Below, in pieces: positions 60,001 through 64,000 of a stretch of DNA of 64,000 nucleotides. Source of the stretch: Escherichia coli (GTDB taxonomy: Bacteria; Pseudomonadota; Gammaproteobacteria; Enterobacterales; Enterobacteriaceae). Where the stretch lies: the NCBI RefSeq assembly GCF_017348835.2, contig NZ_CP071375.1. One strand, written 5' to 3'. A program made the position numbers. Every line of letters begins with the position of its first letter. Position 1 is the first letter of the stretch.

Positions 60001-63000
60001 CTACCAATATCTACAATTTTTACGAAGTATTTCAGGCGTCTGAAGTTCATGTTGCCTCCGGTTTTTAAGAATCGGCCCAAGTGCCGCCATTACTTACAAC
60101 CAGATTGCAAGATGCTTGCCAGTTTTATTGTGGCGTTGATGTACAAGCTAACCAACTGTCAAATAAGAGATTATGATAGATTCGTCATTGGTTCTTTTTA
60201 TCAGCAGTCGCGTTCCCCTGCCCCATAAAAGGAGAGTATGCACCACGATGGTTCATAACCAAAAAGATTGAAAGCTCACCACTTTGTTGAAATTGACAGC
60301 AAACAAACAAAAAAATGCATTTCACCCTTTGACATCACCATGCACTGCCATTAATATGCGCCCCGTTCACACGATTCCTCTGTAGTTCAGTCGGTAGAAC
60401 GGCGGACTGTTAATCCGTATGTCACTGGTTCGAGTCCAGTCAGAGGAGCCAAATTCAAAAAAGCCTGCTTTCTAGCAGGCTTTTTGCTTTCTAATTACCA
60501 ACTCTTTGGTCATTCCAGATCAGCGTGTCGGGTAAACATTGTGGCACTGCTTTCACCCAGTTCCGACATCAACTGCAGAACAATTGCATCATAAGTAATA
60601 AAGCAGAGTTGCTCAAAAGCTGAGCCCATTGGTTGTGCGAAAGCGCCTGCAACACGATTGTTATCGTCTTTCACACTTCCTGGTAGTACCAACACAGATT
60701 GAGCTAATTTACCGATCGTCGAATCTGCTTTCATAGTTACCAGAGCTACGTTTACTCCGCTATCAACTGCTTTTTGTGCCAGACTTTTCAAACTGGTAGT
60801 TTCACCACTGCCTGACCCAATAATTAATAGATCTCCAGGTTGGGTATGCGGGGATGATATTTCTCCCACAACGCTTACTGAAAAACCTAAATGCAGCAAG
60901 CGATTAGCAAAAGCGCGAATAGCAATGCCACTGCGACCAGCTCCCTGCAAAAAAATATGCCGGGCATTTCTGATTTGCGAAATAAACTGTGCAGCCTGAG
61001 CATCGTCAATCTTCAGCGCATTACTCTCTAATTCATGCAGAATATTAATAGTATTTTCCTGAACACTCATTTTTCTCTCCCTTTTTAAGCAATAGTCCGG
61101 CCACCATCCATTAAAATGGTTTGTCCCTGAATATAAGAGTTATCTTTATCTGCCAAAAATATTGCCAGGTTAGCCACATCATCGATAGTCCCCAGACGAC
61201 GGACGGGTATTTTTTCCAGGACAGCGTCTAAATCGGCTTGTGTTGGATAGTTGACCCGCATCATCTCTCCGGTGTCTATTAAGCGAGGAGCGATCGCATT
61301 AACATTGACGCCTTTTGGTCCTAACTCTTTTGCCAGCCCACGAATCAATCCTTCGCCTCCCGCTTTACTGGCAGGATAACTCACACCGCCCCCAGTCCCC
61401 GAAAGCGCTGATCCCGATGAGATATAAACAATAGATCCCTTATTTGTCAGGAAATCATCATAAAACGCCTTAACGGTATTAAACAAACCCGATAAGTTAA
61501 TTGCGATAGTCTTATTCCATTCCTCAAAAGAAATATTGTTAACTTTATTGGCAAATGCCACACCGGCATTTAATATCAACACATCAATGCGACCAAAGGT
61601 AGCAAATACCTTTTCCCGAACATCCACTAATGCCTGTGGATCGGAGACATCTGTTTTAACAAACAGCGATTTAACATCGCCAAAAGTTAACTCTGCTGCA
61701 GTGGCCTTGCCGTTCTCTTCGTTATAGTCAACAATAACAGTATGTGCACCACGATCAGCAAATTGTTTAGCTATCCCTTTGCCAATACCGTGAGCACCTC
61801 CGGTAACTAAAACCACTTTACCTGCAAAATTACTCATTACTTTTCTCCATTAAAGATATTTTTTAGCTGAGGTTTTCCTCCCGATATGAAATCGAAAACC
61901 TCACTTAACTGGATGTGAAATTTTTAGATTGTGATCACTGAACAGCGATTTTTAATGCCTGATAACTTTCACGAGGCTGTTTGTTAAATAAGGCACCACC
62001 AACAACAATAAGGTCAGCCCCTGCTTCTTTAACTTGTTTTACATTATCAAGATTAACGCCACCATCCACTTCAATTTGAATATCTCTGCCAGATATCATT
62101 TTTTTGGTATTACGGATTTTCTCCAGACTTTTATGAATAAATGTCTGGCCTGGTTGCCCTGGGTTAATTGTCATTAACAATATATAATCAATATCATCCA
62201 ATAAATATTCGATTACAGATTCAGGTGTCCCAGGATTAAGCACAACACCTGCTTTGCGACCCGCCTTTTTGATTTTTTGAATAATATAATGTACATGTGG
62301 CGTCGATTCATAATGTACAGAAATCATCTCCGCCCCGGTATTGATTACATCATCAATATGTCGCTCAGGATTTGCCAGCATCATGTGCACGTCAAAGATC
62401 ATCGAACTGGCTTTTTTCATTGCTGCTATTTGATTTGGGCCAAAGGCAATATTACTGACATAAGTGCCATCCATTAAATCAACGTGCAATATTTCGGTTT
62501 GTTCCTCTTCCAGAAAATGAATTTCATCTTTCAGGCGTAAAATATCCGCGCCAAATATAGAAGGTAATATTTTTGCCATGTTAAAACTCCAGAATATTAA
62601 ATCAATGTAATACGGTACTCAACCAATAGGTTAAAATTTCCCACGGGCCGGTTAATACAAAATCAGTACCTTGTCCTTGCAAGCCTACACCGGCTCCAGC
62701 TAAAAATGGCGTTGCCCCTGGTGCGACATAACCGCCTAAATACATCACTACAACGCAGAATAACAAGGTCGAGATAATCGAACGAATCACGTTACCGTTG
62801 CTCGCCATTACGGTCATGGTGGTCATATAAATAATTGACATCAATACGCCAATTGGGAAGATCTTAATATCAGGCAATACCAGAGCACATAGCATGGTTA
62901 AAGGAATGGTAATTACTGTCACGGTGACCGTCGCCTGATCCCCCAACGCTAGTGCACAATCCATACCGATGTTTAATTCAGCATCTTTACCCATCTGTTT

Positions 63001-64000
63001 TTGCATGATTTCTTTGGCACTTTTCCCTATTGGGTTAAGACCTTCCATCAGCACACCGACCACTTTAGGTAACAATACCATTACGCCAGCAACCCCCATC
63101 GCCATGGGAACAATTGTGGTAATTGCCTGTTTCGTTAAAACTCCGAGTAATGCGCCAACGATAACACCGATAATTGCAGGTTCACCAAAGACACCCAGGC
63201 GTTTTTGCACACTGTTTAAGTCAACATCTAACTTATTTAACCCTGGGATGTAATCAATGATTTTATTTACTACCCAGGCGAACGGTAGAGTCCAGCCGAT
63301 ATGAATCATCGTGGTACAGGTTGTTCCCTCGAGTCCATAATATTTTTGCCATCTGGGCGCAATCAAATCGCCAATAAACAGAGCCGCAATACTCAAAGCC
63401 ACCGCGACAGAGAAGCCGATGATAAAACTGTCGAACACAAAATATGCCAGAGCGCCCGGAACTAAAAAATGCATATAGTTCCAGATATCAACATTTAACG
63501 TTTTGGTTAATTTCAGGCGCACCAGTATCAGGTTAAGTACGATGCCAACTGGTATCACTAATGCGGCAAAAGGTGCTACCCATGCAGCAGCACCGACTGC
63601 TGGCCAACCAATATCTGCAACCGTAAAACCACTACCTACTTTTGAGTAAAACTCAATAGCTGGCTGTAATGAACTATTTAATAAACCAACAACCAAACCT
63701 AAACCAATAAAACCAATACCGACTGTGATGCCCGACTTGATCGCGGCACCGGGTTTCATTCTGAACACCAGACCTAAAATAAATATCACCAGCGGCAGTA
63801 TTGCAGTTGCCCCCATTCCGGTGATTGTTTCCATTAAATTTTTCAACATTTCCATTTTTATTATTCCTGTCAGGTTTAGCTATTTGCTAATTCAGTTAAT
63901 AACTCTCCTAATTTCTTACGTAATGCTCCTTCATTAATACCCGTTACAAAACCTGCAACACTCATATGTGGTTTCCCAATATCACCTTTATAGTTATTAG

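What the first reader, a model, noticed from the sequence alone, without database searches (positions are those of the whole stretch)
60510..64000. Carbohydrate PTS and sugar-phosphate enzyme cluster adjacent to asnV
A SIS isomerase, SDR dehydrogenase, RPE/AlsE-like epimerase and galactitol-family PTS EIIC/EIIB lie on the minus strand directly after asnV, where K-12 (from memory) has ldtA/erfK. It is likely an acquired utilisation island for a hexose, hexitol or ketose phosphate; the substrate is not inferable from sequence.
Basis: partly seen in the sequence, partly recalled or inferred. Interest (0 to 1): 0.3.

Follow-up and report, generated by a model that had tools for sequence, protein, structure and literature searches.

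The report
Accessory sugar-alcohol PTS island beside asnV
The finding is real: it is one end of a 9.5-kb accessory sugar- or sugar-alcohol-uptake island, carried by about 4% of complete E. coli genomes, whose enzyme set (dehydrogenase, epimerase, hexulose isomerase) matches no characterised pathway I could find, so its substrate is unknown.

Summary
On the minus strand after asnV lie intact genes for a 6-phospho-3-hexuloisomerase (PHI/HxlB) homologue, an NAD-type SDR, a ribulose-phosphate-3-epimerase (RPE) paralogue and a galactitol-family EIIC. The 3' end of an EIIB gene is cut by the window edge.

An identical copy in strain PE164 shows the whole unit. It is 9.47 kb between asnV and ldtA:
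- operon 1: EIIA-EIIB-EIIC-RPE-SDR-HxlB;
- a DeoR regulator divergent from operon 2: RpiB-like, EIIC-EIIB-EIIA;
- a SorC-type regulator.

The island is accessory: 229 of 5426 complete E. coli genomes, single copy, chromosomal. Its GC is 42.6% against 48-52% in the flanks. It has no integrase or att repeats, and its alleles diverge as much as the flanking core genes, so it is old at this site and IS-eroded in some strains.

The operon 1 module recurs across Enterobacterales, Gilliamella, Enterococcus, Lactiplantibacillus, Paenibacillus, Clostridia and an actinobacterium. I found no functional study.

Best reading: PTS uptake of an unidentified polyol, NAD-dependent oxidation of the polyol phosphate, epimerisation, then PHI isomerisation to fructose-6-P. 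Pentitol and tetritol routes remain open. This is an ordinary kind of locus with an uncharacterised enzyme combination.

The parts
60376..60451 (+). tRNA-Asn (GTT), asnV; conserved left border of the island
   Evidence: ARAGORN. The homology break with K-12 falls about 50 bp downstream of it.
60458..60485 (.). Palindromic G+C-rich hairpin flanked by an A-run and a T-run. It is placed to terminate both asnV (plus strand) and operon 1 (minus strand).
   Evidence: Terminator scan on the identical PE164 copy, L001 20159-20186; sequence. Its bidirectional use is inferred.
60510..61070 (-). hxlB-like gene: single-SIS-domain 6-phospho-3-hexuloisomerase (PHI) homologue, 186 aa; last gene of operon 1
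   Evidence: TIGR03127 scores 209.8 bits against a cut-off of 160. The best solved relative is B. subtilis YckF/HxlB (E=8.6e-44), with the GAGRSG, GSGSGET, QPMGSxFEQ and RHAxLE blocks all conserved.
61085..61837 (-). Classical short-chain dehydrogenase/reductase, 250 aa, predicted NAD(H)-preferring
   Evidence: PF13561 and PF00106. No NCBIfam equivalog cut-off is reached. The sequence shows TGGAHGIG, Asp37 at the end of beta2, NAG and YPASK. Orthologues are 69-93% identical across phyla.
61935..62579 (-). Ribulose-phosphate 3-epimerase family paralogue, 214 aa, with an altered capping loop
   Evidence: TIGR01163 scores 235.3 bits against 212.6. The AlsE model scores 178.5 against 271. His32, Asp34, His65 and Asp172 are kept, but NPGQPGQ replaces the NPGFGGQ of solved RPEs.
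62602..63855 (-). PTS EIIC permease of the galactitol (Gat) family, 417 aa
   Evidence: PF03611 E=1.5e-67. The galactitol-specific model TIGR00827 scores 316.7 bits, below its cut-off of 542.2.
63876..64000 (-). 3' end (41 codons plus stop) of the PTS EIIB gene; the rest lies beyond the window
   Evidence: Sequence. The full 97-aa gene in the identical PE164 copy (L001 23577-23870) matches PF02302 and has the Cys8 site in ILVACGSG.

Best explanation
The window holds the distal part of operon 1 of a 9.47-kb chromosomal accessory island that takes up and breaks down a carbohydrate through the PTS.

Proposed mechanism:
1. Shown by homology: a Gat-family EIIA/EIIB/EIIC takes up an acyclic polyol or ketose and phosphorylates a terminal hydroxyl.
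2. Inferred: the NAD-dependent SDR oxidises the polyol phosphate to a keto-sugar phosphate, most likely a hexitol-6-phosphate to a 3-hexulose-6-phosphate.
3. Inferred: the RPE paralogue inverts the carbon next to the carbonyl. On a 3-hexulose-6-P this is C4, which has the same geometry as C3 of ribulose-5-P.
4. Inferred from a near-canonical PHI sequence: the HxlB homologue moves the carbonyl from C3 to C2 and yields fructose-6-phosphate for glycolysis.

Regulation is inferred. The SorC-type regulator probably controls operon 1 through repeated TGCTCAYATGAGCA operators. The DeoR-type regulator probably controls the neighbouring operon 2 (RpiB-like isomerase plus a second Gat-type PTS), which handles a related substrate.

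The substrate is not identified. Rare hexitols (D-altritol/D-talitol, allitol, iditol) or related rare ketohexoses are the leading candidates.
For: -
- Operon 1 has gaps of 14-97 bp between its genes and a terminator after hxlB.
- The EIIB Cys8 and the EIIA 'IAIPH' histidine are present in the identical PE164 copy.
- The SDR has Asp37 after beta2. By the standard SDR cofactor rule (my knowledge) this means NAD+, as expected for a catabolic dehydrogenase.
- PTS + RPE + SDR + PHI travel together in Enterobacterales, Gilliamella, Enterococcus, Paenibacillus, Streptococcus cuniculi, Lactiplantibacillus plantarum, Clostridia, Selenomonadales and Austwickia. In most loci no other catabolic enzyme accompanies them, so the three enzymes should be enough to reach central metabolism.
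- The PHI homologue passes the equivalog cut-off and keeps every conserved block of B. subtilis HxlB.
- The RPE keeps its metal and catalytic residues but has a subfamily-specific cap loop. This fits a Ru5P-like substrate with a different far end.
- There are hexose-context hints. In Anaerostipes the same operon also carries a GatD-like dehydrogenase, a D-psicose-3-epimerase-like protein, 1-phosphofructokinase and a GatY-type aldolase. In an Erysipelotrichaceae contig an SDR (61% identical) and an RPE lie near an HxlA-type 3-hexulose-6-P synthase, though on mixed strands.
- The operator palindrome occurs 1-4 times upstream of the first operon 1 gene (EIIA, or EIIB in Providencia) in 10 of 11 Enterobacterales-type loci searched. 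The expected number is 0.07 per 20 kb. It is also present where SorC is the only regulator.
Against: - Nothing here has been tested experimentally, and none of the ten full-text searches found a functional study.
- An SDR that oxidises C3 of a hexitol-6-phosphate is not a described activity, to my knowledge.
- The model does not explain operon 2. RpiB-like + PHI-like + PTS stands alone in Streptococcus gallolyticus and Tetragenococcus, and an RpiB-type aldose-ketose isomerase cannot make a 3-hexulose.
- RPE and PHI would also fit a pentose-phosphate reading, because ribulose-5-P is a 3-hexulose-6-P lacking C1.
- The Anaerostipes and Erysipelotrichaceae contexts could be mere adjacency of separate sugar operons.
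- The island is IS-eroded in some strains, so selection on it in E. coli is not strong.
Confidence: 0.4

Rival explanations
1. Pentitol route. The PTS phosphorylates a pentitol (ribitol, xylitol, or D- or L-arabitol). The SDR oxidises the pentitol-5-phosphate to ribulose-5-P or xylulose-5-P. The RPE paralogue does its canonical job. The PHI-like protein acts as an arabinose-5-P/ribulose-5-P type isomerase, or simply adds pentose-phosphate capacity. Operon 2 would then take a pentose such as D-arabinose through A5P to Ru5P to R5P.
For: - Gat-family PTSs with polyol-phosphate dehydrogenases for D-arabitol and xylitol are the documented precedent in Listeria, E. avium and B. methanolicus (PMC6685057).
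- The RPE passes the genuine rpe equivalog cut-off.
- Ru5P has the same geometry as 3-hexulose-6-P minus C1, so a PHI fold could plausibly isomerise Ru5P to A5P (chemical reasoning).
- The island also encodes an RpiB-family protein.
Against: - All hosts already have housekeeping Rpe and Rpi. Strict cross-phylum retention of PHI, and of an RPE with an altered cap loop, is therefore hard to explain.
- The characterised pentitol-phosphate dehydrogenases are MDR-type (sorbitol-dehydrogenase-like), not SDR.
- Ribitol and D-arabitol use in the small fraction of positive E. coli is attributed to the rtl/atl genes (my knowledge).
Confidence: 0.22
2. Tetritol/erythrulose route. This would be a PTS-based analogue of the Brucella and Mycobacterium erythritol/threitol pathways.
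- Operon 1: tetritol to tetritol-P (PTS), to 3-tetrulose-4-P (SDR), racemised (RPE-like), to D-erythrulose-4-P (PHI-like), to erythrose-4-P (RpiB-like).
- Operon 2: takes erythrulose directly.
For: - This is the only scheme I could construct in which both isomerases of the self-sufficient operon 2 (RpiB-like + PHI-like) are needed.
- It gives a one-to-one functional match to the EryA/B/C/H/I steps (my knowledge of Barbier 2014 and Huang 2015).
- The RpiB-like protein scores about the same on the D-erythrulose-4-P isomerase model (99.7 bits) as on rpiB (103.8 bits).
- Its subfamily has CDD where I recall canonical RpiB having CDH.
- It explains why E. coli and some relatives can lack the second SIS gene while keeping HxlB.
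Against: - PHI and RPE look near-canonical. In 3-tetrulose-4-P the phosphate sits next to the carbonyl, two carbons closer than in their native substrates, so both active sites would need re-tooling.
- Operon 1 often occurs without any RpiB-like gene.
- E. coli is classically reported as erythritol-negative (my knowledge), yet about 4% of strains carry the island.
Confidence: 0.12
3. Allulose/allitol-type route. The RPE paralogue acts as a ketohexose-6-phosphate 3-epimerase like AlsE (D-allulose-6-P to fructose-6-P). The SDR supplies the ketohexose-6-P from a hexitol-6-P by oxidation at C2. The RpiB-like protein plays the AlsI role for an aldohexose-6-P.
For: - An RPE-family paralogue next to a PTS in Clostridium innocuum was shown to work as AlsE (PMC12216980).
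- RpiB is the allose-6-P isomerase of the K-12 als pathway (same paper).
- A D-psicose-3-epimerase-like gene sits in the Anaerostipes operon.
Against: - This scheme leaves the universally retained PHI homologues of both operons with nothing to do.
- The AlsE model scores below its cut-off, 178.5 against 271.
Confidence: 0.1
4. The genes are a formaldehyde-fixing or detoxifying ribulose-monophosphate (RuMP) module, or else a decaying cryptic remnant with no current function in E. coli.
For: - HxlB is the RuMP isomerase by sequence.
- Some E. coli copies are broken by IS1 or IS3.
Against: - There is no 3-hexulose-6-P synthase (HxlA) in the island.
- The gene lies inside a PTS operon with dedicated regulators.
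- All six operon 1 genes are intact in the window or in the identical PE164 copy, and 225 of 229 carriers hold at least 80% of the segment.
- Orthologues are strongly conserved across phyla.
Confidence: 0.04

Closest known systems
E. coli K-12 galactitol system (gatYZABCDR)
   Same: - It has a three-component Gat-family PTS (separate EIIA, EIIB and EIIC) under a DeoR-type regulator.
- A polyol is phosphorylated on uptake and then oxidised by a dehydrogenase.
- The EIIA here almost reaches the GatA model (136.7 bits against 139).
   Different: - EIIC and EIIB score well below the galactitol-specific cut-offs (316.7 against 542.2; 50.7 against 95).
- The dehydrogenase here is an SDR, not the MDR GatD.
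- There is no tagatose-6-P kinase or aldolase step. RPE and PHI homologues take their place.
E. coli K-12 sgc cluster (sgcREAQCBX), a cryptic Gat-type PTS with an RPE paralogue of unknown function (my knowledge)
   Same: It combines a Gat-family EIIABC, a DeoR regulator and a dedicated RPE-family paralogue, with the substrate unknown.
   Different: - The RPE here matches PRK08005, which I take from memory to be the SgcE-type model, only weakly (116.6 bits against a cut-off of 376).
- From memory, sgc has no SDR and no PHI.
PTS-dependent pentitol catabolism of Firmicutes (Listeria EII-Axl operon, E. avium, B. methanolicus atlABCD)
   Same: A Gat-family PTS is followed by a polyol-phosphate dehydrogenase, and the products enter sugar-phosphate interconversion (PMC6685057). 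From memory, the Listeria operons also carry RPE and RpiB paralogues.
   Different: - Those dehydrogenases are MDR-type (sorbitol-dehydrogenase-like).
- No PHI homologue is described as part of those pathways.
- The regulators are PRD-type activators, whereas the enterobacterial version here uses SorC and DeoR types.
Ribulose-monophosphate pathway pair HxlA/HxlB (B. subtilis hxlAB)
   Same: The HxlB homologue is a full-length single-SIS PHI. It scores above the TIGR03127 cut-off and keeps all sequence blocks of B. subtilis YckF/HxlB.
   Different: There is no HxlA partner, and the gene is embedded in a sugar PTS operon. If the activity is the same, the 3-hexulose-6-P must come from a sugar or polyol rather than from formaldehyde.
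D-allose/D-allulose pathway (AlsE plus RpiB/AlsI) and the PTS-linked AlsE of Clostridium innocuum
   Same: RPE-family and RpiB-family paralogues are dedicated to a rare sugar phosphate, and there is a precedent for PTS linkage (PMC12216980).
   Different: - The AlsE model cut-off is not reached.
- The SDR and PHI have no counterpart in that pathway.

Membership tests
PTS galactitol (Gat) family transporter | EIIC with the EIIC-GAT fold (PF03611) | tested here: met
   E=1.5e-67, residues 11-375.
PTS galactitol (Gat) family transporter | Galactitol-specific EIIC, EIIB and EIIA (NCBIfam cut-offs for GatC, GatB and GatA) | tested here: not met
   EIIC scores 316.7 against 542.2, EIIB 50.7 against 95, and EIIA 136.7 against 139. 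It belongs to the family but should not be called a galactitol transporter.
PTS galactitol (Gat) family transporter | Phosphorylatable Cys in EIIB and His in EIIA | tested here: met
   Cys8 in 'ILVACGSG' and His in 'IAIPH' are seen in the identical PE164 copy. Both lie outside the window. The motifs are assigned from my knowledge.
6-phospho-3-hexuloisomerase (PHI/HxlB) | Score above the curated equivalog cut-off, with conserved PHI sequence blocks | tested here: met
   TIGR03127 scores 209.8 against 160. The alignment to 1M3S, 1VIM, 9LJ9 and 1JEO shows the blocks.
6-phospho-3-hexuloisomerase (PHI/HxlB) | Catalytic activity on D-arabino-3-hexulose-6-phosphate | not testable with these tools
   This needs an enzyme assay.
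Ribulose-monophosphate (RuMP) formaldehyde pathway | Paired 3-hexulose-6-phosphate synthase (HxlA) | tested here: not met
   No HxlA-type gene is in the 9.47-kb island. The rest of the genome was not searched.
Ribulose-phosphate 3-epimerase family | PF00834 barrel, rpe equivalog cut-off, metal and acid-base residues | tested here: met
   PF00834 E=9.1e-70; TIGR01163 235.3 against 212.6. His32, Asp34, His65 and Asp172 align with those of solved RPEs.
Ribulose-phosphate 3-epimerase family | Canonical NPGFGGQ capping loop of housekeeping RPEs | tested here: not met
   The loop reads NPGQPGQ here, and NPG(Q/T/R/E)(P/A) follows in all 12 PTS-linked paralogues aligned. The three solved RPEs aligned have NPGFGGQ.
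[quoted passage not shown] | NCBIfam equivalog cut-off | tested here: not met
   NF007266 scores 178.5 against 271.
Classical NAD(P)-dependent SDR | TGxxxGxG, NAG and the Ser/Tyr-x3-Lys catalytic motifs | tested here: met
   PF00106 and PF13561. The motifs were read in the sequence. No substrate-specific equivalog cut-off was reached.
tRNA-associated mobile genomic island | Integrase and flanking direct repeats of the tRNA 3' end | tested here: not met
   No integrase is annotated and no att-like repeat was found. The right junction lies inside the ldtA 3' end.
tRNA-associated mobile genomic island | Variable presence and atypical base composition | tested here: met
   229 of 5426 genomes carry it. 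GC is 42.6% against 48-52% in the flanks.

The most novel reading that the evidence does not exclude
The conserved PTS + SDR + RPE-paralogue + PHI module defines an undescribed catabolic route. In it, the isomerase of the methylotrophic RuMP cycle is used by non-methylotrophic gut and plant bacteria to funnel a polyol into glycolysis. This would run either through a sugar-derived 3-hexulose-6-phosphate or, in the tetritol variant, as a PTS-based replacement of the Brucella-type erythritol pathway. The neighbouring RpiB-like + PHI-like operon would be a second, related route.
Probability: 0.3. Interest if true: 0.55.

Novelty: new variant of a known kind. Interest (0 to 1): 0.3.

Why it matters
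The locus is one of many strain-specific sugar islands that shape which E. coli lineages can use which dietary or plant compounds. In itself it is ordinary.

The wider point is the module. Its SDR orthologues are 69-93% identical from Enterobacterales to Clostridia and an actinobacterium. It occurs in gut, bee-gut, plant-associated and food-fermentation bacteria, and it includes a 6-phospho-3-hexuloisomerase with no formaldehyde-fixing partner.

Identifying the substrate would have three results:
- It would assign function to a widely annotated but unexplained 'hxlB/rpe/SDR' gene set.
- It might reveal a new polyol or rare-sugar pathway, which is relevant to sweetener metabolism in the gut.
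- It would give a defined niche marker for the roughly 4% of E. coli that carry the island, including the laboratory strains ATCC 8739 and MP1.

Tried and rejected
- Literature. All ten full-text searches found no functional study of this gene set. The terms covered asnV with PTS, hexuloisomerase with PTS/galactitol/sugar alcohol/erythritol/plantarum, ATCC 8739 with hxlB, allulose with AlsE, and lmo0508 with arabitol. The only direct mention is a gene list for the Pantoea ananatis OVR-A locus.
- Classical tRNA-integrated island. Rejected: there is no integrase and no att repeat.
- RuMP formaldehyde module. Rejected: there is no HxlA, and the gene sits in a PTS operon.
- The Streptococcus mitis/Enterococcus cluster (PRD regulator, EIIA-EIIC-EIIB, YjbQ, RPE, SIS). 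I considered whether this was the same system. It shares a 65%-identical PHI, but its RPE (39%) and EIIC (37%) are distant and it has no SDR. I treat it as a related but different system.
- Solved-structure neighbours of the SDR. They are only generic FabG-like reductases and say nothing about the substrate.
- Tagatose enzymes as substrate evidence. The lacC/lacD genes next to the Enterococcus copy and the gat-like genes in Anaerostipes are only a hint, because sugar operons often cluster.
- Tools not used. I ran no structure prediction or fold search. They would not resolve substrate specificity for enzymes whose folds are already clear from sequence.
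Full report
**What is in the window.**
- A 186-aa single-SIS protein at 60510-61070. It passes the curated cut-off for 6-phospho-3-hexuloisomerase (TIGR03127, 209.8 bits against 160).
- A 250-aa classical SDR at 61085-61837 (PF13561, E=6.5e-58). It reaches no substrate-specific equivalog cut-off.
- A 214-aa ribulose-phosphate-3-epimerase family protein at 61935-62579. It scores 235.3 against 212.6 on TIGR01163, and 178.5 against 271 on the AlsE model.
- A 417-aa galactitol-family EIIC at 62602-63855 (PF03611, E=1.5e-67). It is well below the galactitol-specific cut-off (316.7 against 542.2).
- The last 41 codons of an EIIB gene, cut by the end of the window.

asnV is at 60376-60451. 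A palindromic hairpin with an A-run on one side and a T-run on the other follows at 60458-60485. It could terminate both the tRNA and the convergent operon. Gaps between the genes are 14-97 bp, so a single transcription unit is likely.

**The whole unit.** The window from 40300 to 64000 is 99.98% identical to E. coli PE164 (NZ_CP114128.1), and the query segment 60300-64000 matches it at 100%. In that record the cluster continues, reading leftward from the window edge:
- the rest of EIIB, then EIIA, which completes operon 1: EIIA-EIIB-EIIC-RPE-SDR-HxlB;
- a DeoR-family regulator;
- divergently transcribed from it, operon 2: an RpiB/LacAB-family isomerase, a second Gat-type EIIC, EIIB and EIIA;
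- a SorC-family ('sugar-binding') regulator;
- ldtA-cobTSU.

Comparison with a K-12 derivative places the junctions about 50 bp after asnV and inside the last codons of ldtA. In the island form, 9.47 kb replaces 37 bp of K-12 sequence.

**Is it an acquired island?** It is accessory. 229 of 5426 complete E. coli genomes have it, always as a single chromosomal copy, and 225 hold at least 80% of the segment. Carriers include ATCC 8739 and the mouse commensal MP1, along with isolates from humans, livestock, wild mammals and food.

Its GC content is 42.6%, against 48.2% and 51.7% for the flanks. The representative genomes of the nearest species did not turn up in a scan of 100,044 species genomes, whereas many other Enterobacterales did, with the module in unrelated chromosomal contexts. 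That supports horizontal origin.

Three results qualify the picture.
- There is no integrase, no transposase and no att-like repeat.
- Between PE164 and SCU-176 the island genes are 97.0-99.4% identical, while the adjacent core genes ldtA, cobT and cobS are 96.3-97.7% identical. The island has therefore sat at this site for about as long as these lineages have diverged.
- In SCU-176 a different element has inserted between asnV and hxlB, leaving the sugar genes attached to ldtA. In VG888-46E9 the island is broken up by IS1 and IS3.

The pattern is an old acquisition followed by inheritance, recombination and repeated loss. It is not a currently mobile element.

**Distribution of the module.** A scan with the SDR found orthologues in many lineages:
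- 87-93% identical in Enterobacter, Citrobacter, Klebsiella oxytoca, Pseudocitrobacter, Brenneria, Erwinia, Pantoea, Rahnella, Providencia and Izhakiella;
- 92% in one Enterococcus and 83-84% in others;
- 82% in Paenibacillus;
- 79-80% in Hespellia, Enterocloster bolteae and Anaerostipes;
- 77% in Gilliamella, 75% in Streptococcus cuniculi, 74% in a Selenomonadales genome and 71% in Austwickia.

Synteny mapping shows that in essentially all of these the SDR sits with an RPE paralogue, a PHI homologue and Gat-type EIIA/B/C. In most loci no other catabolic enzyme accompanies them. Lactiplantibacillus plantarum has both operons side by side.

In Pantoea, Erwinia, Brenneria and Pseudocitrobacter, operon 1 stands alone with the SorC-type gene directly upstream. 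DeoR, in contrast, sits immediately upstream of the RpiB-like gene and is transcribed divergently from it in nearly every locus that has operon 2 (the Tetragenococcus locus lacks it). Operon 2 ends in a second PHI-like SIS gene in Enterobacter huaxiensis, Citrobacter and K. oxytoca (51% identical to HxlB). E. coli, E. wuhouensis, Entomohabitans and Providencia lack that gene. Operon 2 stands alone, with housekeeping flanks, in Streptococcus gallolyticus, and alone apart from PTS fragments in Tetragenococcus.

**Regulation.** A 14-bp palindrome, TGCTCAYATGAGCA, occurs three times in the 336-bp region upstream of the E. coli EIIA gene and in degenerate form upstream of the SorC-type gene. It occurs 1-4 times upstream of the first operon 1 gene in 10 of the 11 loci searched, all Enterobacterales; the one without a match is Gilliamella. 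Shuffled sequence gives 0.07 matches per 20 kb. The motif is conserved where SorC is the only regulator present. I therefore infer that the SorC-type protein controls operon 1 and that DeoR controls operon 2. This is an inference from position and conservation, not a demonstrated binding.

**Sequence features that bear on the chemistry.**
- The SDR has TGGAHGIG, Asp37 at the end of beta2, NAG and YPASK. By the usual SDR rules (my knowledge) this is an NAD+-preferring classical SDR, as expected for a catabolic dehydrogenase.
- The PHI homologue aligns end to end with B. subtilis YckF/HxlB (E=8.6e-44). It shares the GAGRSG, GSGSGET, QPMGSxFEQ and RHAxLE blocks with that protein, with archaeal PHIs and with an HPS-PHI fusion.
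- The RPE paralogue keeps His32, Asp34, His65 and Asp172. It carries NPGQPGQ where three solved RPEs have NPGFGGQ, and all 12 PTS-linked paralogues aligned share the NPG(Q/T/R/E)(P/A) change. I read this as the same chemistry and phosphate geometry with a different far end of the substrate.
- The RpiB-like protein keeps the catalytic Cys (YICGTGIG). Its whole subfamily has CDD where I recall canonical RpiB having CDH.

**Most likely mechanism.** The general reading is secure at roughly 0.85-0.9: a PTS-dependent catabolic operon for a polyol or ketose.

For the specific steps I favour this route, at about 0.4:
1. PTS phosphorylation of a hexitol.
2. NAD-dependent oxidation by the SDR to a 3-hexulose-6-phosphate.
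3. Inversion of C4 by the RPE paralogue. This position is equivalent to C3 of Ru5P.
4. PHI isomerisation to fructose-6-P.

This scheme uses each enzyme in near-native chemistry and explains why three enzymes suffice. It also fits two contexts:
- the Anaerostipes operon, which adds a GatD-like dehydrogenase, a D-psicose-3-epimerase-like protein, 1-phosphofructokinase and a GatY-type aldolase;
- an Erysipelotrichaceae contig, where an SDR and an RPE lie near a bona fide HxlA-type synthase, although on mixed strands.

From the stereochemistry, candidate substrates would be D-talitol/D-altritol, allitol or iditol. That step is pure reasoning.

**Weaknesses and rivals.** No C3-specific hexitol-phosphate SDR is known to me. 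The scheme also does not explain the self-sufficient operon 2, because an RpiB-type enzyme cannot make a 3-hexulose.
- Pentitol route, about 0.22. It has the best precedent: Gat-type PTS plus arabitol-phosphate dehydrogenase in Listeria, E. avium and B. methanolicus (PMC6685057). It leaves the strictly retained PHI and the altered RPE unexplained.
- Tetritol/erythrulose route, about 0.12. It is the only scheme I could find in which both isomerases of operon 2 are needed: 3-tetrulose-4-P to erythrulose-4-P to erythrose-4-P. It mirrors the Brucella pathway step for step. It would, however, require near-canonical PHI and RPE to accept substrates whose phosphate is two carbons closer to the carbonyl. 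E. coli is also classically erythritol-negative (my knowledge).
- AlsE-like allulose/allitol route, about 0.1. It has a PTS-linked precedent in C. innocuum (PMC12216980), but it leaves PHI idle.
- RuMP formaldehyde module. Excluded, because there is no HxlA and the gene sits in a PTS operon.

**Comparison with what is known.** The locus works like the gat, srl and atl type of PTS polyol operons and belongs to the Gat transporter family. It is not the galactitol system, since the specific cut-offs are not met. It is not the K-12 sgc cluster, and it is not a RuMP module. RefSeq annotates the genes generically as hxlB, SDR, rpe and PTS IIC/IIB. The only paper I found that lists the gene set is the Pantoea ananatis OVR-A accessory locus, and it assigns no function (PMC5817063). 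I therefore class it as a new variant of a known kind. The sequence itself is not new, and the biology is uncharacterised in the literature I could search.

**Verdict.** The thing itself is an ordinary accessory sugar island. The modest added interest is that its enzyme set is conserved across phyla and matches no described pathway. Interest 0.3. If the 3-hexulose or PTS-tetritol reading proved true, about 0.55.

Noticed in passing
PE164 locus L001 24355-24491 and 29539-29565 (beyond window position 64000); also L003, L009, L011, L013, L014, L017, L019, L020, L022 and L039: A 14-bp palindrome, TGCTCAYATGAGCA, is repeated 1-4 times upstream of the first operon 1 gene in the Enterobacterales loci searched. 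The chance expectation is 0.07 per 20 kb. Weaker copies lie upstream of the SorC-type gene. It is probably the operator of the SorC-type regulator.
   Followed up: partly
PE164 locus L001 25773-29477 (beyond the window): The island contains a second Gat-type PTS operon led by an RpiB/LacAB-family isomerase. The E. coli version lacks the terminal PHI-like SIS gene that Enterobacter huaxiensis, Citrobacter and K. oxytoca have. The same operon stands alone in Streptococcus gallolyticus and Tetragenococcus (L050, L051). Its RpiB-like subfamily has CDD where I recall canonical RpiB having CDH.
   Followed up: partly
window 10277-11586, 43757-45070 and 56253-57566: Three nearly identical IS3-family copies (99.6-99.9%). 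The third splits yeeO into fragments at about 55008-56261 and 57563-57808.
   Followed up: partly
window 31010-31085 (asnT) and about 31235-45028: A separate integrase-bearing island sits at the first tRNA-Asn. It contains a tyrosine recombinase (31235-32497), IS66 (about 33063-35262), a MazEF-type toxin-antitoxin pair (about 37270-37860), an LA2681-family HEPN protein (about 39244-40848) and a 946-aa hypothetical protein. A truncated Ig-like (yeeJ-type) pseudogene follows. It may carry defence-related cargo.
   Followed up: no
window 1 to about 29901, with tRNA-Ser at 29929-30018: A lambdoid prophage lies next to tRNA-Ser. It has a frameshifted integrase, the dicABC/ydf genes, antiterminator Q, lysis genes, terminase, and frameshifted portal and capsid genes, so it is probably defective. 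Its three-tRNA cluster at 14624-14873 is called Arg-Arg-Met(CAT) by ARAGORN, but the CAT tRNA is annotated tRNA-Ile in RefSeq.
   Followed up: no
window 31010, 54832, 57969 and 60376: All four tRNA-Asn genes of the asnT/W/U/V region lie in one window. Two of the four (asnT and asnV) border strain-specific DNA. In SCU-176 (L003) yet another element, with RepL and H-NS-like genes, sits between asnV and hxlB.
   Followed up: partly
L004-L008 (Streptococcus mitis, Enterococcus): A related Firmicute cluster pairs a Gat-type PTS with a YjbQ-family protein, an RPE paralogue and a PHI that is 65% identical to the E. coli one, under a PRD regulator. This is another PHI-containing PTS operon without HxlA and of unknown substrate.
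   Followed up: partly
L052 (E. coli VG888-46E9); hit H38 (TUM14664): Some E. coli copies of the island are decaying. In VG888-46E9, IS1 and IS3 insertions have left only fragments of rpe, both EIIC genes and EIIB. In TUM14664, an IS1 sits inside the operon.
   Followed up: partly
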